Notes under the pieces: generated by a model
The model's database searches: none
What the model was told of the DNA's origin: nothing
Seen by the model: only the letters and a program-made list of their open reading frames with translations
Part shown: positions 28,410-43,146 of the stretch, piece after piece
Layout of the letters: each line of letters begins with the position of its first letter
Position numbering within the stretch: the stretch's first letter is position 1
Assembly (NCBI GenBank): GCA_951406725.2
Contig: OX597817.1
Span: 175,770,001 to 175,834,000 of the forward strand
Direction: 5' to 3'
Length of the DNA: 64,000 nt
Source: Octopus vulgaris
Taxonomy: Eukaryota
Position numbers and translations under genes: made by a program

Positions 28410-28829
28410 ACGTGACCGTAGCCAGTACCGCAACGACTGGCCTCCGTGCTGAGAGCACGTAACAAACACCATCCGAGCGTGGCCGTCCGCCAGCCTCGTC
28501 TGGCACCTGTGTCGGTGGCACATAAAAAACACCATCCGAGCATGGCCGTCTGCTAGCCTCGTCTGGCACCTGTGTCGGTGGCACATAAAAAACACCATCC
28601 GAGCATGGCCGTCTGCCAGCCTCGTCTGGCACCTGTGTCGGTGGCACATAAAATCACCCACTACACTCTCGGAGTGGTTGGCATTAGGAAGGGCATCCAG
28701 CTGTAGAAACACTGCCAGATCTGACTGGCCTGGTGCAGCCTTCGGGCTTGCCAGACCCCAGTTGAACCGTCCAACCCATGCTAGCATGGAAAGCGGACGT
28801 TAAACGATGATGATGATGATGATGATGAT
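28410..28829 (+). mobile_element. Non-autonomous RTE-like retroelement with 63-bp tandem 5' repeats and (GAT)n tail
   Basis: One divergent unit plus three near-identical 62-63-bp units, then ggagtggttggcattaggaagggcatccagc (RTE 5'-UTR-like) and tail gctagcatggaaagcggacgttaaac(gat)n. A nearly identical copy lies at 40926-41286. Confidence 0.8.
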
Positions 28830-29788: not shown

Positions 29789-30342
29789 TGACTAATATAG
29801 ATAACCCCTCGATTTCCAAAAAAAATTTTTCCTATACTTCACCCCAATAATCAAAAAGATTTTCTTATATTCCCAATTACTATTATCCATTCTTGTGTTG
29901 CCTCTCACCTCGCCCGATTCTTTCTCCCTTTCGCTATCTACTTTCCTTTCTCTACAGTAAACATAATCGAACACACAGACACAGACCTTTCACCTCACAG
30001 CTGTCAGTTTTCTGACATCTACCCATCCACAAACACAATCACGCATTCAGACACACACATATACACATCAAGACAGTTATATACAGTCACACACACAGGC
30101 ACTCATTCACAAAAGAAATCATTTAAACCCACCATTCTTTTGACCTGCACTCTCTCACCTTACTATTCTTATGCCTCCCTCCTCCTACTTCGTTTGAACC
30201 CTTGAACCTTTAGAACCTTCTAGATTCTTTTACATTCAGCCACTCTGACGTCACTCCTTATAAAGAGACACTCATTATCGCCATGGGCTCCTTGAGAGCG
30301 GTCAGCTAAAAGTTTTTTGTGCATTTTGATGTCGACATAAGT

Positions 30343-31210: not shown

Positions 31211-32096
31211 GCGTGCGTGCATACATGTATGTATTCTTTTATTTTCGCTACCGAGTTTTCGGCAAATTACAATCTCTGCCGACTTCAGTAGTAACCCTAT
31301 CTGGATCATAAAATGAAACATCACCTACTTTCTTTCACGTATTGGGCATTTGTTATAATGGTGACCGCAGCCACATGTCAGTGCAGCTTAATTTCTATCG
31401 TTTTAACATTTTGGCATTTAAATTCTAATCACTACCTGTTAGTCTAACAACGGTCCTCAACCTTTTACTAATCCCACTATCTCACGTGCTTAACACATAA
31501 CATCAAAGGAAACTTTTGTATCTAAAGTCGGTTTTAAGAAACAATATCTATCACACTACACTCATCCTACTGAGCCTCCAAAACCCACAAGTTTCTTTCA
31601 CCTTGTTCTACCAGATCGCTTACAGTTACATAGATATATTGGTTTCAACTTTGTTACTAATTTCTTATGAAGAATGTATCTATCTATCAAGCGTGACGTC
31701 CCCTATGCCATGGAGTACAATTTCCCCCAAACTGTTTCCTCACTTAAGCTATTTCCGTAGCCTCATGAGCAATTTCAAATTTAAAGGAATTAAAAATTTT
31801 CTCAAACTTTCGGTCTTAACAGCTGGAATTTTTGCTATTTTCTTTCGCAATTTTCCGCAAGATTTCCATTTAATTCCAAAGTTTCCATTATATTACTATT
31901 CATTCATCCGTATTTATATCTCTGTATTGTTCACACGGTGTCATCTTTAAAATAAGACAGCAGCCTGCGATTTAGTATTTATACATTGATGACGTCCTAT
32001 ATAACACAGCCATAATAAATAGTTACCCATAAGGTTTACTATATCGAGCAGCCATCCTATGGTAACTCAAAGCAATGATTTTAATATCCAGTTTAA

Positions 32097-32312
32097 CCTT
32101 TTAGCATTCAAACCGGCCATATTAGGCCCAAATATTCTACCTGTTTTATGTTCAAATTGACCCGATCGGGCTTCTCATACCTACCCTACAATGTCATTCT
32201 AAAAAGAAACAATCACATCATTGAAATCTCAAGGCTATGAGATAATGTATGATAAATTCAAAACAATATGAATAAGTATTAAATTTGACAGAGAAGGCTA
32301 AACGCTAAAGGG
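32097..32312. mobile_element. piggyBac-like MITE
   Basis: TTAA-ccttttagcattca ... taaacgctaaaggg-(t)TTAA. Confidence 0.7.
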
Positions 32313-32390
32313 TTTAAGAAGCAACTAACTGGCACCCATTCAGTTTGGGGCAGAACAAAGCCCTTGGGCAATCTATATCTGTAGGACTAT

Positions 32391-32785
32391 TTTACTCTCT
32401 TACTTCTTTCAGTCATATGACTGTGGCCATGCTGGGGCATCGCCTTTAGTCGAGCAAATCGACCCCAGGACTTATTCCTTGGAAGCCTAGTACTTATTCT
32501 ATCGGTCTCTTTTGCCGAATCGCTAAGTTACAGAGACGTAAACACACCACCATTGCTGGGGGTACAAACACAGACACACAAACATATACACACACGTACG
32601 TATATATACATATACATATATACGACGGGCTTCTTTCAGTTTCCGTCTACCAAATCCACTCACAAGGCTTTGGTCGGCCAGAGACTATAGTAGAAGACAC
32701 TTGCCCAAGGTGCTACGCAGTGGGAATGAACCCGGAACCATGTGGTTGGTAAGCAAGCTACTTACCACACAGCCACTCCTGCGCC
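32391..32785 (-). mobile_element. Full-length CORE-like SINE
   Basis: Reverse complement of the 35340-35710 copy; head ggcgcaggagtggctgtgtggtaag. Confidence 0.9.
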
Positions 32786-33140
32786 TATAAAAAGGACTGA
32801 TAATAAAGCCAAAACAAATTGTGAAAATAAAGAACGAAACTTCAGTATTTTGAGTAAGCGAAACGAATATGCTTCTATAATTTGTCCCTTGATTGTATGT
32901 ATTAACTTTACACAAATCTTTAGTTTACAAACATATATTGTTACAGATTCTAGTAATTGCTATAAATTAACCATTGTTTTAGTTTGGGTGCAGCAAGAAA
33001 CCCGAGTAATATTCAGATGTTTCCAGAATATTAATTGAGGTTTGTCATTCATTGCGGTTTGAACACAACAGCTTTGTTTTGACTCACGCCTAGACTTAAT
33101 TCGTAAGAAAAGGAGTGGTAGGTATCTTTAACCGGTCTCC

Positions 33141-33221
33141 TATCAGTTTGGTAGGGTATATCATCATCATCATCATCATCATCGTTTAATGATGATGATG
33201 ATATACCCTACCAAACTGATA
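33141..33221. repeat. Inverted repeat centred on an RTE-type (GAT)n tail
   Basis: tatcagtttggtagggtata(tca)n tcgtttaa (tga)n tataccctaccaaactgata. Confidence 0.95.
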
Positions 33222-33669
33222 TATATATATATCTCAGCTTTTGAATCATGTAGTAATAATACATCGAGTGGCGAGAAACATATACATATCTGTTTCGCTT
33301 ACTCGGAATATCCAAGTCTATTTATGGAGTTTCCCTGGGGTGGGTTTCGTTATCAGATTCACGAGTCTATTTACTTAAACCCCAAGGATCACCAATTTTT
33401 GCAATATGATTGATGCAAGTTGCTTCATTTAGTAGGTGATGTGCTATATTTCTTTTGGTAGCCAAATATATTTTGGTAGGTTGCATTGTTCCTAGAATCA
33501 AATGTAATTGATTAAAATTTCAACGCTTTAAAAATACAAATAAACAAATACTTTGCTTTTATTTTATTTACAGTTTCTAAACTTTCCTTAAATTTCTTAA
33601 AAGTTTTCGACCGCTTTTTCTTATGCTAATGGAGATTGTTACTTTCTTCGGAAATGCAGAAAATTAAAA

Positions 33670-34041
33670 TCTCTATATATATAAACGGCAAAATGTGTGT
33701 GTGTGTGTGTGTGTGTCCTTTATACAAATCCACAATTTTTCAATTAGAGGGCTTGCACTTTCTATGGTCATTTAAAACCGTCCAAGGGTAGTCTTGCACA
33801 TCTTTACATTTCCCCAGTCCCCCCGCAAAGCCATTAAGAAGTCAATAGAAGTGACTTTTTTGTGAATTTTCTATCCAAAACCCAATTAAAATGACCGAAA
33901 CTTGGTACGCCAATTGAATGCCAGCTAGCTGTATGTGATTGGTCGGGGATTTGGACAGTACTTGCGTGTATGTGCGCACGCACGCAGCTGTATATGCATG
34001 CACTAGCACTAAGACCCGGCGTTGCCGGGTCATAGTGCTAG
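33670..34041 (+). mobile_element. Non-autonomous Helitron
   Basis: A|TC-tctatatatataaa 5' end; 3' hairpin gacccggc-gtt-gccgggtc followed by CTAG|T. Confidence 0.8.
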
Positions 34042-34344
34042 TATATTATAATTACTGAGAGATTAACTTTCATTAATGACATAAACCAGCAATCCCCAAC
34101 GTTTTTTTTATCTTTTTTAACCAGGAACCGATATCATGCAAGACGAGAAGACAATGCACTTAACAAAACACAACAAAATCATTACATATATAATGCAAAA
34201 AATATCTTGCAGACTACGGTAGTCAAGAACAGAAATAATTTCTTTTTTTAAGTTTATTTTCTATGCAAGCCATTGGTCAGGATTAGGGACCCTGATGCAA
34301 ACAACTGTCGTGGCTTCAGTATTTCAGTTGCATTTTCACAAACC

Positions 34345-34528
34345 AACTCGCCCGAGACCTAACATGGTCCTCTCATAGAAACTTCCCGTTTTAAATATGA
34401 TCTACCAAAATTACATACTAATTTATGTCCTAAGCACTAGCTTCATAAAGATAGAGTTATTTTACTAGGTTCTTCATTGTTCACAAAATTGGTGATACTT
34501 TTTAGCAGAAATATGGTAACAAAAGGGT
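34345..34528 (-). mobile_element. piggyBac-like MITE family copy (also 56804-57007 and 61640-61824)
   Basis: Three diverged copies share gaagaa(t/c)(t/c)tagtaaaataact and termini of the type aaccc(t/a)ttgttacc ... tatcaaaag(gg). Confidence 0.55.
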
Positions 34529-35339
34529 TGAGAGGTTTTCCCCCATTGCATATTAACTGGAAATAAGATTTTGAATCAATGATAAGTAAACAAATCGGCT
34601 TTAATTTCTTCGCAATATGAAACATCCGAGTTGAAAATCACAACAAAATGTAAATTAACATATTTCAGAATAGCTATCTTCGTCTTCTCTAAGAGAGTTA
34701 TTTCGTCTTTGAGATAGAGAGAGAAAGAGAGATTTCGTCTTCTCTGAGATACAGGAAAAGAGAGATTGACAAACAGTAATTAATATAAATTATTTACGAA
34801 GTCACTTCCACAAAAGGGTTAAGAGCAAATCAATGAAAAAAAAAACACGTTGCGTGTTTAAAAGAGGACTACCCAGAAAAACAGATGTTGCCGAAGTCGA
34901 ATGTCATAGAATCAATGTTATCTTAGAGACGGATCTATAGGAAAAAATTCACATGCATCACATGACAAGCTATACGATGACATATCAGATCCATAAACAA
35001 GAGCCATACACATAAAATAAAAATCATCCACATGCACAACGCTTTTTTAAGTTTGACATGTGTTAAGTTAAGCAAGAACATTATTATGAATGTTTATTTA
35101 TTGCAGTCCCACTCGTGTTTGTTTATCATGGGTGAGACTTCAATAAACACGTCTTGCAGCCTTTGAAACACAATGAAGGAGGAATAAGTAGTATATGTAG
35201 TTAAGCGGAGCTTAAGTAAACACCAAGTTGAACCAATTAGTTGATTCATTAGAAATATTTCTTTTTACATTTTTTAATCAACGTGTGTTTAAAGTACCGT
35301 GAAGAAAAAAAGCATTTAACGTTTTCCAAACGAAACATA

Positions 35340-35710
35340 GGCGCAGGAGTGGCTGTGTGGTAAGTAGCTTGCTTACCAACCACATGGTTCCGGGTTCAGC
35401 CCCACTGCGTGGCACCTTGGCCATGTTTCTTCTACTACAGCCTCGGGCTGACCAAAGCCTTGTGAGTGGATTTGGTAGACAGAAACTGAAAGAAGCCCGT
35501 CGTATATGTGTGTGTGTGTGTGTGTGTGTGTCCTCCCAACATCGCTTGACAACCAATACTGGTGTCTTTACCTCCCCGTAACTTAGCGGTTCAGCAAAAT
35601 AGACCGATAGAATAAGTACTAGGCTTACAGCGAATAAGTCCTGGGGCTGATTTGCTCAACTAAAGGCGGTGCTCCAGCATGGCCACAGTCAAAATGACAA
35701 ACAAATACAA
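35340..35710 (+). mobile_element. Full-length CORE-like SINE
   Basis: tRNA-like head with A box tggctgtgtgg and B box gggttcagcccc; internal (TG)n; tail ctccagcatggccacagtcaaaatgac. Confidence 0.9.
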
Positions 35711-37616
35711 GAAAAAATACCTCGTTTCTGTGCCCCTTGACACCCTAAACATAATTCTATTCATTAGTTTATGTATGTCTTCACTATTCATTGTCCAAGT
35801 GGGTTTCTTGCAAATGGTTAAAGCATCGGGAAATATCCTTCACGACGTTCGTTCCAGTTCTTTACGTTGCAATCCCGCAGACATCAACTTAGTCTTTCAT
35901 CTTGCCTCCGGGTTCAATAAAATAAAATGAAATAAAAATGCCATTCGTGTACCAAGACCCATCTCTTCAAAATTGTTAGCCTTGACCTAAATCAGAACTC
36001 TAATTCATATAATCATACAACCGTTATTAATTGCCATTATTTTTGCTGTATCTGATATTGTTTAGTCCTATGTTAGTCGTAACTAATGACTAAAGCCATT
36101 CCAATCTTGATCAGCTAGTCTTAAAAAAAAAAAACGCAAGATTAAAAAAAGAAAGGCATTCGATTTTTACTCCGAGTTGCCAAAACTCAAAACAATGTTC
36201 TGGTCCAAGCGAATATACAACTACAGACAGTGGAAGCCGTTTATTATAATCATGAATGATGCTGTTAACCAGTTATTATCAGCAGAATTGAAAGATGTGA
36301 AATTCTTTATTTGCTTAATATCATCAGCAAATGATTAATTACCATTGAAACACCATCATCACAGTGATCGCAATAAGCGGCTCCCCGCTGTTTCTTTAGC
36401 GAAATGTCACATGAGACAGAGAATGATTTGCTGTTGTTTAACCCTAGGTCAGCCCTCATCGAATAAACTTGTGAACAAATACATTCCAACCGTGACTGTG
36501 CATCCAGTACTACATTAATGTATCTTTTCATTAAGACACTAAGTGAGGGGAAAAGGTCGTCCAAAGGAAACTAAACTACTATTTCTAGCAAATTGAATGA
36601 CCACATAGGTCCCTTCATAAACTCAAAACCCTCCACGTAGTCGCCTCGCCCTAAATATTCCGATAATGAAAATCTCGTTTATTAGGGTTATGTATAAAAC
36701 TAAATTATCTAATATTCGCTTTATTTTATATGGTAGCGATTTGAAGGAGACTTGACTGATATTTCTAGGAGGTCGAGTGACTGCCAAAAAAAATAAATAA
36801 ATAAAAAGGAAAAAAAGAAAAGCTATTTTGCTAACATGTCAAATGGAACCCGTTTCTATATATGCCTCCCACTTAAATTCCCTAAGTTTTCAATTTAATT
36901 TTGTAACGGAAGTTTGACACAAAACTTCACATAACAAACAAAAAATAGTAATTTTTTTTCCGACATTGTCACTTCTCAAAAGAGAATGAGTTGAATAAAA
37001 AAAAATGTTTTTTTCTAATTCGTCAGCAGCAGCAACTCAATCGTTTTTTGTTTTGTTGTGTTCGGGTTTTTTCAGATTTCTTTTTAAATTTTTCCGAGCA
37101 ATGGATTTCAATCGAATTATTACTGAAAGCGGAAAGTCCGATCAATAAGGATCAATCAATAAATAGATTACTGATTGATTTCTTCTTTTCTAGCAACTGT
37201 TTTAGATAACATGTATCACGAGATCACTGAGGCCACCCTTCTCCCATTTCTTTGACTCATCACAAGTGAAGAGGTTGTTAAGAGAGTAAAAATTGCTAAG
37301 TCACATCGGTAGCTTTCCTTCAGTGATTCAAGTTCTTATTGAAGCGACATCATCGCAAGAAAATTTAGGAAGTAAATTTGTCAATGAAGCATTTTGTCAT
37401 CATCGGTAGTGTCATTAATCATCACCTGTAGCTCTGTTGGTCGGTGGGAGACGGATGAATAACCGGTTTAAATAATTTGAGAAGAGTAACTTGTACTGTT
37501 CGCCACTCCTTAGCTTTCTTCATGCCCACACAAAAAGTGGAACACAACACTGTAACCTTTATAGTTCTTCCACTGCACTGAACAGGTAACCTGCGATATC
37601 CGTTTACAGTTTATGT

Positions 37617-37936
37617 CAGGGGTTCTCAACTGTTTTTTATTTATGAACCCCTTTGACTATTTTATTCTAGGGGACCCCCATTGCCATTCGATGTTTAAAA
37701 ACTAGTTATAGAAATACTTGTTTCAAAATTCCTATTTTGCTTTTCACACATTAATTTGTGTAGGTTGAACTATGTAAAATGGTAGAGAAAAACAAAACCT
37801 AGCTGTTTCTTGCAGTACATATATCTAAAGCAAAATTGTTTCAGGGGCTCTTAAAATAGTATTTTGGATCCCTTATTTACTATTTTATTGCGTGGACCAC
37901 CAAAAATCTTATATGGACTCGGGTTGAGACCTGCTG
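37617..37936. mobile_element. hAT (Charlie-like) MITE with 8-bp TSD
   Basis: caggggttctcaac ... gggttgagacctgctg; TSD gtttatgt / gtttaggt. Confidence 0.8.
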
Positions 37937-38348
37937 GTTTAGGTGGACTGATCCAATGACAGTGAAGCGTCGTAGATACACGCATAAGGCAATATGGATG
38001 ACAGGGCCAAACCCAATAAACCTCAAAACTGATTAGCTGCTACACAATCCACAAGGACATCAACGGGTTCTAAAGGACAAAAACAAAAGCGTTTTCGGTC
38101 CTTGTGATAGGTAAAAGCAACAGCTTTCAGTCAAAGCATAAACTGACAAGAAGTATTAGAAAGGCAAATTTTAGCTGAGCGAACTTATAACAACGAGAAC
38201 TAAACTGTTTTACCCACAAAGGTATAATAAGCTTCCCAAAACGGAAAACAAACCAACGACTTAACGATCAAGATTCCTATGGTCTAACCACAAAGCTAGG
38301 CACCTACCAGAGCAAGTTAGGTTGTACAGTTTGACACAACATGGAGAG

Positions 38349-38643
38349 CGACAGCTGCGGGGTACGAGTGACTAACTATTGCAAAATGAACAAAAGTTAG
38401 TTAATAATGGAAGTAGTGGAATAAGATACAGTTTTGCAGACATAAACTAACATTCGCTCGAAATCATCATCATCATCATCATCATTTAGCGTGGAGAACG
38501 GACGCTAAATGATGATGATGATGATGATGATTTCGAGCGAATGTTAGTTTATGTCTGCAAAACTATCTTATTCCACTACTTCCATTATTAACTAACTTTT
38601 GTTCATTTTGCAATAGTTAGTCACTCGTACCCCGCAGCTGTCG
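38349..38643. repeat. Near-perfect 143-bp-arm palindrome with 9-nt loop centred on an RTE-type tail
   Basis: Arms 38349-38492 and 38502-38643 differ by a single 2-bp indel as read by eye; loop ggagaacgg. Confidence 0.97.
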
Positions 38644-38854
38644 GTGGGAAAAAAAAATAAAGAAAAGAAAAGTAAAAATGGCTGTAAGATAAGCAAGCAC
38701 ATATGTCAAATAGATCAGACAAGGAATAAATTGAGTTTAAGAAGAATTATTAACCTCATATTTCGTATTCCCGTCTCTTATTTTATACACTATGCTGCTT
38801 TTCAACCTAGTGAACCATGTATGTGTGGAAGTGAGTGTACAGACAAACATACAC

Positions 38855-39163
38855 AACCAACCACATGGTTCCGGGTTCAGTCCCACTGCGTGGCACCTTG
38901 GGCAAGTGTCTTCTAATATAGCCCCGGGCTGACCAATGCCTTGTGAGTGGATTTGGTAGACGGAAACTGAAAGAAGCCTGTTGTATATATGTATATATAT
39001 GCGTGTGTGTGTTTGTGTGCCTGTGTTTGTCCCCGATGCTGGTGTGTTTACGTCCCCGATAGAATAAGTACTGGGCTTACAAACAATAAGTCCCGGGGTC
39101 GATTTGCACGACTAAAGGTGGTGCTCCAGCATGGCCGCAGTCAAATGACTGAAACAAGTAAAG
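38855..39163 (+). mobile_element. CORE-like SINE, 5'-truncated
   Basis: accaaccacatggttccgggttcagtccc ... ctccagcatggccgcagtcaaatgactgaaacaagtaaa. Confidence 0.85.
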
Positions 39164-39339
39164 GATAATTTTCGGCAGTATTATTTGTGACTCATGCGGG
39201 AGAAATTCTGGAGGGAGATACGAATTCACTTGTCTATATAAATGTGGATATGCTGATTAGCTTCTGTATGTCCGATGTCGCCTGGTCGGAAATATGGAGA
39301 GTAAGATTTCCTAGCATTTCTAGATTTATTTATCGGAAT

Positions 39340-39399
39340 ATTATGTTGATGAAGGAAATGAATCCCAGATTCTAATCCAGAAACGTATGCGTCCATAAT
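39340..39399 (+). ncRNA. Type I hammerhead ribozyme, U3 variant, in a Penelope-like 3' end (about 39165-39598)
   Basis: Helix I attatg/cataat; TTGATGA at 39346-39352; stem II gga..gaatc-cca-gattc..tcc; GAAA at 39380-39383; quasi-palindromic CGTATGCG; GUC site ending at 39393; (TA)n about 200 nt downstream. Confidence 0.75.
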
Positions 39400-39595
39400 T
39401 GACCGGACACTGTTTGATTTCGTTGTTTTTCTTCGTTTTTTTGCCATAGTGAGTTACAAATACTGTTGTCTGTGGGACATATTTTTGTAGTAAAAGAAAT
39501 AACAGTCGTCTGGCTACTATTTCTAATACTTTCGGTATGTGGTCTAGCAACTTGTTGCAAAGACCCTCATTGTTATAATTATATATATATACCGC

Positions 39596-39635
<40 letters not shown>

Positions 39636-39779
39636 CACACACTGTTGAATTCAGTTTCAATAAACTATATACTCTTCAGTTCTCTTCATCAGCGGTGCGA
39701 CACACTCCGACTCCCAACATGTGTCTTCTATATGAGACAGACAGATGGATCGTATCATAAAATTGTGGGACTGCGGTTC

Positions 39780-39999
39780 CCACTGACAAGCTGCTGTCAA
39801 GTGTAAATAGTAGCTACTTAACGTTACGCTTTCAAATTTTTGGTGGTCAAAGTTGTGACGCCGCTATAGAGTAGGGGTTACCACAGCTATACAGTTTAAG
39901 ACATCAGACGAAGCCAGCAAGGCAAGGGGGCTGCTGCGAGTGTCGCTGGCCATTCTCCGCAGCAACGCCTTTGCAATCATATCTGCGAGACGCGGCTAA
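39780..39999 (+). pseudogene. Possible CRE-like non-LTR retrotransposon C-terminal relic
   Basis: LLRVSLAILRSNAFAIISARRG* resembles the FQRLS.A.QRGNA C-terminal motif; the upstream part is heavily decayed. Confidence 0.3.
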
Positions 40000-40506
40000 A
40001 TACATTTGTTCTGCGAGTGTACAACCAGTTACACTCTCCCATCCCATCTTCTGCTTAAACGCCTTCTTATTTTTTTCTTTGTTTCTTTGGTGAGGTAGTT
40101 ATGGGTTTTTTTATTCTCCCGATAATTTGATCTTTTATACTTTAAAATTATTTTTCTTCCTGTAAAAAAATTATGACTCAATATTGTAATCCAGATCCCA
40201 ACCCAAGTTCTTGTCTTTTATATATAGCTAGGTACACGTGTGTGTGTGTGTGTGTGTGTGTAAAGAGTCCTGCCGATTCATTTGATAAAACGGTACTTAA
40301 GAACCTACAGCAACTTCTCATGAATCTAACAAATTTACACGAACAATGCATGTGTGTATTTATCGTAGAATTGGTGGGGTTTTTTTTTAAGCTTTCGCTT
40401 TCATTTTTATCAAGCAGTATTTTTTACCCTTCTTTTATTCAAATATTTCATATTATACCTGTTTAGGTAGAAATCTTGCTAGCCACCCCATTGAGGCACA
40501 TGAAAT

Positions 40507-40760
40507 TGTTGTCGTGGCCGATGACAGTACCACCTGATTGGCACATAAAAAGCACCAATCGAGCATGATCGTTGCCAGTGCCGCCTAACTGGCTCCTGTG
40601 CTAGTGACACGTAAAAAGCATTGTCCGAGCGTGGTTGATACAAGTGCTGGGTGACAGGTCCTGTGCCGATGGCATGTAAAAAGCACCCACTACGCTCTCG
40701 GAGTGGTTGGCAATAGGAATGGCATCCACTGGTAGAAACTTTGCCAGATCAGATTGGAGG
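40507..40760 (+). mobile_element. Older variant of the RTE-like non-autonomous element with three diverged 5' repeat units
   Basis: Units ending gcac(g/a)taaaaagca(cc/tt), then cactacgctctcggagtggttggcaataggaatggcatcca. Confidence 0.7.
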
Positions 40761-40764
40761 CTGG

Positions 40765-40930
40765 TAGAGCTTCCATAGCCAAGCCAGTCACCAGATATGA
40801 ACACTATAGAATACATCTGGCGGGACAGGAAATTTCATAGACTAAATGAGAAAGCATCTGCAAAGCCAGATCTTTTAAGATTACAGCATGAAACTTGGCA
40901 AGAAATTCCTCAAAAGAATATTCGTCATCT
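40765..40930 (+). pseudogene. Tc1 transposase C-terminal fragment
   Basis: LP*PSQSPDMNTIEYIW...LQHETWQEIPQKNIRHL matches the WPxQSPDLNPIExxW motif. Confidence 0.75.
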
Positions 40931-41286
40931 GAGCGTGGCCGTCCGCCAGCCTCGTCTGGCACCTGTGTCGGTGACACATAAGAAAACACCATCCGAGCGT
41001 GGCCGTCTGCCAGCCTCGTCTGGCACCTGTGTCGGTGGCACATAAAAAACACCATCCGAGCGTGGCCGTCTGCCAGCCTCGTCTGGCACCTGTGTCGGTG
41101 GCACATAAAATCACCCACTACACTCTCGGAGTGGTTGGCGTTAGGAAGGGCATCCAGCTGTAGAAACACTGCCACATCTGACTGACCTGGTGCAGCCTTC
41201 GGGCTTCCCAGACCCCAGTTGAACCGTCCAACCCATGCTAGCATGGAAAGCGGACGTTAAACGATGATGATGATGATGATGATGAT
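40926..41286 (+). mobile_element. Non-autonomous RTE-like retroelement with three 63-bp repeats and (GAT)n tail
   Basis: Nearly identical to 28467-28829. Confidence 0.85.
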
Positions 41287-41818
41287 CAGTAAGATGCTTA
41301 ACAGGGTCCTTGCCTTGAAAAACGCAAAGGGCATGTCAACTAAATATTAAATATTCACATTATAATGACTAACAAATAATTTGAATCTATAATTTGAGAT
41401 TTAAATAAATTTTGATGATTATAAGTTTGTCTATTTACTTCTGTCATGTCTGTATATATGCATATATATACATATATTTATATATATATATGCACATATA
41501 TATACATATATGTATATATATGCATATATATACATATATGTATATATATATATGCATATATGGCACCTTGGGCAAATGTCTTTTACTACGTTTACAGTGA
41601 TCAAATGCTTGTGCATAGCATTACCTCACTGTCTCCATCAAATCGATGTTGTCAGAACATATGCACAATGTACCACGCATCAGGTGTCAAAGTGATCATA
41701 GAGCAACATGACATGAAGTGTTTGGCTCAAGAAAACAATACACCACCCAGTCTATGATTTGAAATCGCGATCACTAGATCACAAGTGCCACACCCTAACC
41801 ACTAGGCCAGGGGCCCTC

Positions 41819-41851
<33 letters not shown>

Positions 41852-42552
41852 GTGCTGGTGGCACGTAAACGCAACCATTATACTCTTAGAGTGGTTGGTG
41901 TCAGGAAGAGAATCCAGTCATAGAAAACCAGGCCAAATCAAACTGAAATCTGGTGCAGCTTTCCAGCCATGCCAGTATGGACAACAGATGTTAAATGATG
42001 ATGATGATGCGATACACATATATACATACACACACACACATCTGATTCCTTCTCTCCCTCTCTCTCTTGGTCACTGCTTCTTCTCTGATTCCTTCTCTCC
42101 CTCTCTCTCTCGGTCACTGCTTCTGTCCTCGCCTTCCACCCTCCTTGGCCCCTTCTCTCTCTTACCCTCTTGCGACTTGCTGCCTCAGCCATTCTGTTGC
42201 CATCGGCCGCTTGTTCAACATGTGTCTTATCACCAAAAAGGTAATTATTTTTCCACGCTTGCTGATATTGTTTTTGTGTCTCTCTTTTTGTCTCAAAGCC
42301 GTAGGGCGCCTGTGTCATCCTTGTTTTTAACCGTTATTGTCTCCAAAAAAGATTTTTCGTTTCATGTTCGTCTCTCTTGCGTTGCATTCTTTCCTTCTGT
42401 GGCTGGCTGCTTCAGAGCGGATCTCAGAATTAAACAGCCGAAATCTGCGATGAGGGATCAGTTTCTGACTGAAGAATGAAGGCTTTGAATGACCCATTTG
42501 TCTTTTTGTTCGTCCCTTCGTGTATTTCACGTTATTTATTTATGTAAAGGTT

Positions 42553-42595
<43 letters not shown>

Positions 42596-42712
42596 TATAA
42601 ATGCACATGTATACATATATACACACATATACAAGTATATTCATTCATATGGATCTTTATCTGTGAATATATACATACTAGTATATAAGCGTAAATAAGA
42701 ATATGTGTATAT

Positions 42713-42764
<52 letters not shown>

Positions 42765-43146
42765 CTGAGGATCTACAAAAATAGACAGGAGACAGATTGT
42801 GTGATGCAATTAGGTTGCAGCTACTTGAAAAATGTTTATGTGCTGTATGTATGATTATAGATGCAGGTGTGGCTGTGTGGTAGAAAGTTTGCTTCCCAAC
42901 CATATGGTTCCAAGTTCAATCCCATCGTGTGGCATCTTGAGGAAGGACCATCCCTTATAGCTGCAAGCAACCAAAAGCTTTCTGAAAGGATCTGGCAGAT
43001 GGAAATTGAAAGAAACTCATCATACATGGATGTGTGTACTTGTCATCATGTGTTAGTTGTAAATGACAGTCACTCGCACAGAAGCAGCGTCATTCATTTC
43101 CAATATTCAGCAAAGATCATATTTGGCCATAGGGAAACATTAGCTT

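What the first reader, a model, noticed from the sequence alone, without database searches (positions are those of the whole stretch)
38349..38643. Long palindrome whose loop is the 3' stem-loop of an RTE retroelement: candidate snap-back retrotransposition product
Seen: about 112 bp of unique flank plus the (GAT)n tail is duplicated in inverted orientation (one 2-bp indel between arms) around ...tttagcgt-ggagaacgg-acgctaaat(gat)n. The centre matches the 3' terminus of the RTE-like elements in this window (tagcat-ggaaagcgg-acgttaaac(gat)n at 28782 and 41239), and the 9-nt loop corresponds to the loop of that element's own terminal stem-loop. Established: non-LTR elements insert by target-primed reverse transcription from a 3' tail, and twin priming inverts the element rather than the flank. 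Inference: the cDNA stalled after the first few tens of nucleotides, folded back on the stem-loop, self-primed, and was extended back through the tail into flanking DNA. That would make this family a generator of host-sequence hairpins (potential dsRNA, ADAR/siRNA substrates, cruciforms). I do not know of this being described for cephalopod RTEs.
Basis: partly seen in the sequence, partly recalled or inferred. Interest (0 to 1): 0.85.

Follow-up and report, generated by a model that had tools for sequence, protein, structure and literature searches.

The report
Aborted retrotransposon insertions mirror host DNA
This mirror-image stretch is real, inherited DNA and one of an estimated several hundred like it in an octopus genome; each holds only the last few letters of a jumping gene between two inverted copies of the neighbouring host DNA, most likely because the freshly made DNA copy folded back on itself and was extended before the break was sealed.

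Summary
The palindrome is real: arms of 144 and 142 nt, identical but for a 2-nt indel, around a 9-nt loop, and unique in the genome. Both outer junctions occur in 5 of 5 close public runs. Two runs of a relative about 6% diverged hold the empty site, so the tail-side arm is original and the other is a copy. The centre is the last 19-24 nt plus (GAT)n tail of an endonuclease/RT-encoding, RTE-like LINE. It is one of a class: 43 loci share this centre, an estimated 370 or more have shorter ones (about 1% of at least 30,075 element ends), and a second lies 5 kb away in the window. Non-repetitive flank is mirrored at 18 of 43 loci (cross-paired null 5 of 1806). Best reading: reverse transcription aborted, the cDNA snapped back, was extended through tail and flank, and was end-joined. 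Snap-back is published for engineered R2 and somatic L1 insertions. I found no report of a natural germline class. Earlier scan notes show only Penelope palindromes.

The parts
38349..38462 (-). Inverted copy of the downstream host flank (114 nt); absent from the empty site
38463..38483 (-). Inverted copy of the (GAT)7 tail
38484..38492 (-). Inverted copy of the last 9 nt of the element; overlaps the inferred fold-back priming point
38487..38510 (+). All that was reverse transcribed of the LINE body: last 19 nt (38492-38510), or 24 nt if one base was changed later; includes the 9-nt loop 38493-38501
38511..38531 (+). Original (GAT)7 tail of the LINE
38532..38643 (+). Original host flank (112 nt); continuous with upstream DNA in the empty site; lacks 2 nt near 38563 that the copy and the relative both have
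33141..33221 (-). Second member of the class: 19-nt flank arms, tails of 8 and 4 units, 7-nt centre holding about 6 nt of the element end (minus strand); empty site not checked
40926..41286 (+). Ordinary 5'-truncated copy of the same LINE (3' UTR with 63-bp tandem repeats, terminal hairpin, (GAT)8)
28455..28829 (+). Ordinary 5'-truncated copy of the same LINE, 97% identical to the copy at 40926

Best explanation
The palindrome holds the last 19-24 nt and the (GAT)n tail of an RTE-like LINE between the original downstream flank and an inverted copy of it, and most likely arose in one aborted insertion in which the new cDNA folded back, was extended through tail and flank, and was then joined to the upstream end. 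Shown: the element's identity, the empty site, which arm is original, and recurrence across the genome. Inferred steps: (1) the LINE endonuclease nicks the bottom strand and the RT copies the tail and about 20 nt, stopping in the 3' strand of the RNA's predicted terminal hairpin; (2) the freed cDNA 3' end pairs with itself by 1-6 nt; (3) a polymerase extends it back over the tail and 112 nt of flank, which needs the top strand resected or displaced; (4) the new strand is released and end-joined to the upstream end, here with loss of about 20 bp; (5) fill-in makes both arms double-stranded. I judge a host end-joining polymerase (Pol theta type) slightly more likely than the LINE RT for step 3, about 55:45; this is untested.
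For: Empty site in 2 of 2 runs of organism E (two studies): upstream flank to 38348 runs, after 28 letters, into the right-arm flank at 38540, with no tail and no inverted copy. Both window arms agree where E differs (38413/38579), which fits copying after the split. 43 loci carry the same centre, reversed-pattern control 0. A shorter-centre pattern gives 156 matches on the strand that counts each locus about once, control 0. Mirrored non-repetitive flank of at least 15 nt: 18 of 43, against 5 of 1806 cross-paired flanks; 33 of 90 over all three sets, 19-221 nt, median 68. At those loci both arms begin at or within a few bases of the same point after the tail, as expected if the tail-flank joint was copied as DNA. 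Where the target is a multicopy repeat, paralogues run across the tail-side outer junction, not the other: L008 31 vs 0, L010 15 vs 0, L012 4 vs 0, L051 43 vs 1, L037 40 vs 7. L012's empty site shows a 2-bp overlap in 5 of 6 joins. The copied tail is shorter than the original in 46 loci and longer in 19, p=0.001, as slipped priming would give. L045 has a second fold-back on the copied side. The same 3' end lies behind RT and APE-endonuclease frames. Snap-back 5' junctions are documented for R2 in human cells (PMC11371274, PMC11204384; passages read).
Against: No contig spans the whole palindrome. Arm depth is about doubled in only 1 of 5 holders (X4 48.9 vs 17.9/20.2; X2, X3, X5, X6 not). 57 of 90 loci fail the complex-arm test, having only simple-repeat arms, short arms or none, so they may have other origins. 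Tails are unequal at 65 of 90 loci, which independent priming would also give. Tail-to-tail neighbours are far commoner (4075 multi-counted matches vs 451), so chance adjacency of copies is frequent here. Ordinary copies show no clear excess of inverted sequence at their 5' ends (7 of 72 vs 33 of 708). At simple-repeat loci the paralogue test often points the other way (L004 0 vs 7, L033 1 vs 8, L049 1 vs 12). The 28 letters at the empty site were not displayed. No step of the mechanism was observed directly.
Confidence: 0.8

Rival explanations
1. Replication-coupled version: the short cDNA was made at a nick, and the inverted copy was templated from the opposite strand or the sister chromatid when a fork met the site, not by an intramolecular hairpin.
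For: L1 foldbacks at the primary RT end are explained by replication/fusion (10.1101/2024.12.14.628481, passages). Eight of 24 short-centre loci have a nominal 1-nt loop at maximal pairing, too tight for a hairpin unless fewer bases pair.
Against: Those loci can also prime with 2 bp and a 3-nt loop (inference from the sequence). The published route gives large foldbacks, whereas these copies have a median of 68 nt and return to the upstream flank.
Confidence: 0.09
2. Two-ended priming: both ends of a break, or of a cut in a pre-existing hairpin, primed on the RNA tail, and the two short cDNAs annealed head to head.
For: Unequal tails at 65 of 90 loci. Loci with no mirrored flank, such as L003, L022, L031, L040, L061. 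Other short hairpins are common in this genome (18 in 452 kb).
Against: The empty site in organism E has no inverted copy. Paralogues of L012, L051 and L008 targets have none either. It may still explain the arm-less subset.
Confidence: 0.05
3. A normal, longer insertion came first; a later template switch or break repair replaced its 5' body with an inverted copy of tail and flank.
For: With at least 30,075 element ends, secondary rearrangements are expected. Foldback priming at breaks near short inverted repeats is established in yeast (PMC10622511, abstract).
Against: The upstream junction sits at the insertion point (about 20 bp lost here, 2-bp overlap at L012), so the second event would have to remove the whole body almost exactly, repeatedly.
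Confidence: 0.04
4. Assembly or library fold-back artefact, or a MITE.
For: No contig spans the whole structure; arm depth doubled in only 1 of 5 holders.
Against: The upstream-flank/left-arm junction, which exists only in the palindrome allele, is in contigs of 5 samples from 4 studies. The arms differ by an indel and the relative sides with the copy. The arm is unique and the arms listed for the 43 loci differ from locus to locus.
Confidence: 0.02

Closest known systems
Snap-back 5' junctions of R2-mediated (PRINT) insertions in human cells (PMC11371274, PMC11204384; passages read)
   Same: The cDNA 3' end primes synthesis on itself or on nearby target DNA, then joins upstream target DNA; opposite-strand sequence sits 5' of the insert.
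   Different: Engineered, somatic, site-specific R2 with long cDNAs, where the copied part is mostly cDNA. Here it is natural, inherited and genome-wide, the cDNA is about 25-50 nt with its tail, and copying runs past the tail into host DNA.
L1 insertions with local inverted duplication or foldback (10.1101/2024.12.14.628481; section 9 and passages read)
   Same: Self-annealing with about 2 bp at a TPRT break primes an inverted duplication of host DNA.
   Different: The two inverted-duplication examples there are on the reciprocal (upstream) end; primary-end foldbacks are large replication/fusion events in cancer or cultured cells. Here the primary RT end is duplicated locally and the chromosome stays intact.
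5' extra nucleotides of LINE inserts copied from flanks (PMC4245944; parts 2-3 of 5 read)
   Same: Flank-derived sequence at the 5' junction of truncated LINEs.
   Different: Explained there by annealing to the upstream end; the parts read describe no long inverted copy of tail plus downstream flank.
Twin priming of L1 (recalled; cited in PMC11371274's reference list)
   Same: An inverted segment at the 5' side of an insertion.
   Different: The inverted part is element RNA sequence; host flank is not duplicated.
Foldback priming at DNA breaks by Pol delta (PMC10622511, abstract) and Pol theta snap-back synthesis (title seen in a reference list; mechanism recalled)
   Same: A 3' end folds on a short inverted match and is extended.
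   Different: No retrotransposon involved; the yeast outcome is a dicentric chromosome.

Membership tests
RTE-clade LINE (donor element) | Reverse transcriptase upstream of the same 3' end | tested here: met
   RVT_1, E 2.5e-23 and 2.8e-15, above cut-off; frames end about 490 nt before the tail
RTE-clade LINE (donor element) | APE endonuclease N-terminal to the RT | tested here: met
   PF14529 E 2.2e-5, below cut-off; top homologues carry PF03372 and names such as 'craniofacial development protein 2-like'; that this name marks RTE-derived endonucleases is recalled
RTE-clade LINE (donor element) | Single ORF, no ORF1 | tested here: inconclusive
   The four copies extended are frameshifted or truncated; homologue P0130 has endonuclease, RT and PHD in one frame
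RTE-clade LINE (donor element) | Short tandem-repeat 3' tail | tested here: met
   (GAT)n after the terminal motif at 30,075 exact matches
RTE-clade LINE (donor element) | RT groups with named RTE elements in a tree | not tested
   No named RTE reference proteins were fetched; hence 'RTE-like'
Snap-back junction (PRINT definition) | [quoted passage not shown] | tested here: met
Snap-back junction (PRINT definition) | The antisense stretch is joined to upstream target DNA | tested here: met
   Empty sites: this locus; L012
Snap-back junction (PRINT definition) | Synthesis is primed by the cDNA 3' end in cis | not testable with these tools
   Inferred from anatomy only
Twin-priming inversion | Inverted part is element sequence only | tested here: not met
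   114 of 144 nt of the inverted arm are host flank
MITE | Multicopy terminal inverted repeats | tested here: not met
   Arm unique in G000; different arms at other loci
MITE | Whole element inserted between target-site duplications | tested here: not met
   One arm is part of the empty site; no duplication outside the arms
L1-type inverted duplication on the reciprocal end | Upstream flank is the duplicated part | tested here: not met
   The downstream, tail-side flank is duplicated

The most novel reading that the evidence does not exclude
The RTE reverse transcriptase itself routinely self-primes on its nascent cDNA and copies host DNA by strand displacement in the germline, making this family a standing source of new, heritable host-sequence hairpins, some of which are transcribed and feed the siRNA, miRNA or ADAR pathways of octopus.
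Probability: 0.2. Interest if true: 0.85.

Novelty: new variant of a known kind. Interest (0 to 1): 0.62.

Why it matters
How a non-LTR cDNA is joined at its 5' end is still open, and snap-back is a known by-product of retrotransposon-based gene insertion. This genome holds an estimated several hundred natural, inherited snap-back junctions from one family. Turn point, pairing length, copied length and rejoin point can be read at each, and many have empty orthologues, so RT versus host-polymerase models can be tested statistically and then in cells. It is also a concrete route to new perfect hairpins of unique host sequence, about 135 with clear arms by extrapolation (370 x 33/90). That contribution should not be oversold: other short hairpins occur at about 40 per Mb in my biased sample, so this class is likely well under 1% of them, and no function is shown.

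Tried and rejected
The (TAG)n-(CTA)n control with 534 matches is not a second family: the listed centres are mostly plain microsatellite inversions, and 1 of 7 fetched had a borderline arm, as did 0 of 1 (GAT)n-(ATC)n locus. Prediction that fold-back on the element's real hairpin would be commonest: failed, with 10 matches (two of them near-identical duplicates). One (L161) has a 34-nt mirrored flank, one has both tails but no arm, and 8 could not be parsed for a tail on both sides. Excess of snap-back at 5' ends of ordinary copies: not found. The first paralogue test without a low-complexity filter was swamped by microsatellites and was redone. The pairing-length statistic is unreliable where the copy primes in slipped register or has since mutated (negative values). 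No Rfam match in 32000-43000. No stop-free frame of 100 or more codons spans either palindrome, but exons were not sought. Identity with the published RTE-2_OV was not tested; its 3' UTR is described as mostly microsatellite (PMC9115989, passages), unlike this one. Earlier-finding look-ups by words and by sequence returned nothing.

Full report
Observation. The structure is as described. Arms 38349-38492 and 38502-38643 are complementary without mismatch apart from one 2-nt gap, around a 9-nt loop. Each arm has 112/114 nt of flank, (GAT)7 and 9 nt of element end. The fold has z -36.9. The arm has no other match in G000, 2.8 Gb in 227 contigs. A second, smaller example lies at 33141-33221.

It is germline, and its polarity is known. 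I laid 7 distinct runs of the 24 listed. In X2, X3, X4, X5 and X6 (5 samples, 4 studies, four organism labels) one contig runs from the upstream flank 30 nt into the left arm and another from the downstream flank 30 nt into the right arm. This is the break pattern expected when inverted arms collapse in a graph assembly, and the left junction exists only in the palindrome allele. No contig spans the whole structure, and arm depth is about doubled only in X4. In X16 and X17 (organism E, about 6% diverged, two studies) a single contig goes from 38348 through 28 undisplayed letters to 38540 and onward, with no tail and no inverted copy. Eight of the 28 letters are expected from 38532-38539, so about 20 bp were lost at insertion or gained in E. 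The right arm is therefore original. Both arms agree where E differs at 38413/38579. E has the 2 nt that the right arm lacks, so that loss followed the copying.

The element. The window copies at 28455-28829 and 40926-41286 are 3' UTR fragments with 63-bp repeats. Longer copies end in the same terminus behind an RT frame with a weak PHD-like match and an APE endonuclease frame. Homologues carry the same domains and octopus and 'craniofacial development protein 2-like' labels. No tree was built, so I call it RTE-like. The last 35 nt match exactly at 30,075 places. Among 72 ordinary copies with a usable boundary, estimated lengths run from 33 to about 2040 nt.

The class. A pattern for this centre finds 43 loci, control 0; all 43 were fetched. 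Mirrored non-repetitive flank of at least 15 nt occurs at 18 of 43, against 5 of 1806 cross-paired flanks; a second parser gave 17. Shorter centres give 451 multi-counted matches and 312/156 matches. Of 34 distinct loci listed by my hand count, 23 went to set B, 3 to set C, 1 was dropped as related to L029, and 7 were left out because the centre was not element-like; the window's second palindrome was added to B. Set C adds 20 distinct loci. Clear arms: B 10 of 24, C 6 of 23, in all 33 of 90, 19-221 nt, median 68. Many of the others sit in (AT)n-type sequence, where arms cannot be told from chance. The two largest contigs hold 59 distinct loci, which scales to about 370, some 1.2% of exact ends; the patterns are exact, so this is likely low. 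Loci cluster mildly (2 pairs within 20 kb, p 0.01). Where the target is a multicopy repeat, paralogues again show the tail-side arm as original (L008, L010, L012, L037, L051), and L012 has a 2-bp overlap; simple-repeat loci are uninformative or point the other way.

Where it turns. Fold z-scores are modest, -1.0 to -1.8. The 9-nt loop is the 3' half of that hairpin. The retained element length ranges from 3 to 24 nt. Elsewhere apparent pairing is 0-4 nt. Only 10 matches are centred on the true hairpin and 1 of them has a mirrored flank. For this locus, either 19 nt were copied and primed by 1 nt, or 24 nt were copied and one base was changed later.

Mechanism. One aborted insertion with cDNA snap-back, extension through tail and flank, and end-joining explains the polarity, the shared tail-flank joint on both arms, the junction at the insertion point, the shorter copied tails (46 vs 19, p 0.001) and the double fold-back at L045. 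All enzymatic steps are inferred. Against it, or left open: unequal tails at 65 of 90 loci, loci without arms, abundant tail-to-tail neighbours, and no excess of inverted 5' sequence at ordinary copies. A replication-coupled copy cannot be excluded from sequence alone.

Comparison with print. Snap-back junctions are defined for engineered R2 insertions (PMC11371274 and PMC11204384, passages). L1 gives inverted duplications on the reciprocal end and large foldbacks on the primary end (10.1101/2024.12.14.628481, section 9 and passages). Flank-derived 5' extra nucleotides are known (PMC4245944, parts 2-3 of 5). The R1/R2 junction survey has no occurrence of 'inverted' or 'snap' (PMC2718515, passages). 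The octopus papers seen do not describe the class in the parts read (PMC9115989, passages, 'palindrom' 0 hits; PMC13282606, part 1 of 3). PMC10622511 was seen as abstract only. Ten library searches found no natural germline class of this form. The library lacks most subscription papers and I opened no supplements, which might hold such cases. Earlier scan notes from this genome list Penelope and ribozyme-element palindromes in which the element, not the flank, is inverted.

Verdict. A real feature and a new variant of a known kind: a natural, inherited, genome-wide record of snap-back at the priming end of an RTE-like LINE. Function is not shown, and other hairpins are far commoner in the sample (18 in 452 kb). 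Interest 0.62.

Noticed in passing
window:33141-33221: Second palindrome of the same class 5 kb from the first; under a uniform spread a neighbour this close has a probability of about 0.001, so loci cluster or the class is larger than counted.
   Followed up: partly
L111:907-1089: Inverted repeat of RT-coding sequence (49-nt exact arm, palindrome continuing inward) at the 5' end of a longer truncated copy: looks like a classical cDNA snap-back deeper in the element.
   Followed up: partly
L070:1740-1930: Two head-to-head element ends with diverged arms of about 75 nt, turning upstream of the terminal hairpin.
   Followed up: no
L045:1398-1496: The copied arm folds back a second time, giving serial inverted copies.
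   Followed up: partly
L029 and L030 (G000:C1:68196885-68205350): Two class members 5.4 kb apart share about 1.06 kb at 89% in inverted orientation; L029's arms extend about 1.1 kb through simple repeats. Possibly a larger inverted duplication.
   Followed up: no
G000 genome-wide: (GAT)n directly followed by (ATC)n is very common (4075 multi-counted matches), suggesting insertion of copies tail-to-tail beside existing tails.
   Followed up: no
L010:2793-2848, L043:1591-1761, L058:424-479, L063:1596-1767, L143:593-841: Near-perfect short-spacer hairpins without the LINE tail; 18 such in 452 kb. Origin unexplained.
   Followed up: no
L093, L113 (RT frame residues 139-182): A PHD-like Cys/His finger follows the RT core of this LINE and of many marine homologues.
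   Followed up: no
window:29441-29785: Stop-free frame of 115 codons with a motif that looks like a GIY-YIG endonuclease (by eye, recalled), possibly a Penelope fragment.
   Followed up: no
L156 and L157 (G000:C2:40977007 and 41012421): 3-kb stretches 99.8% identical, 35 kb apart: recent duplication or uncollapsed haplotype.
   Followed up: no
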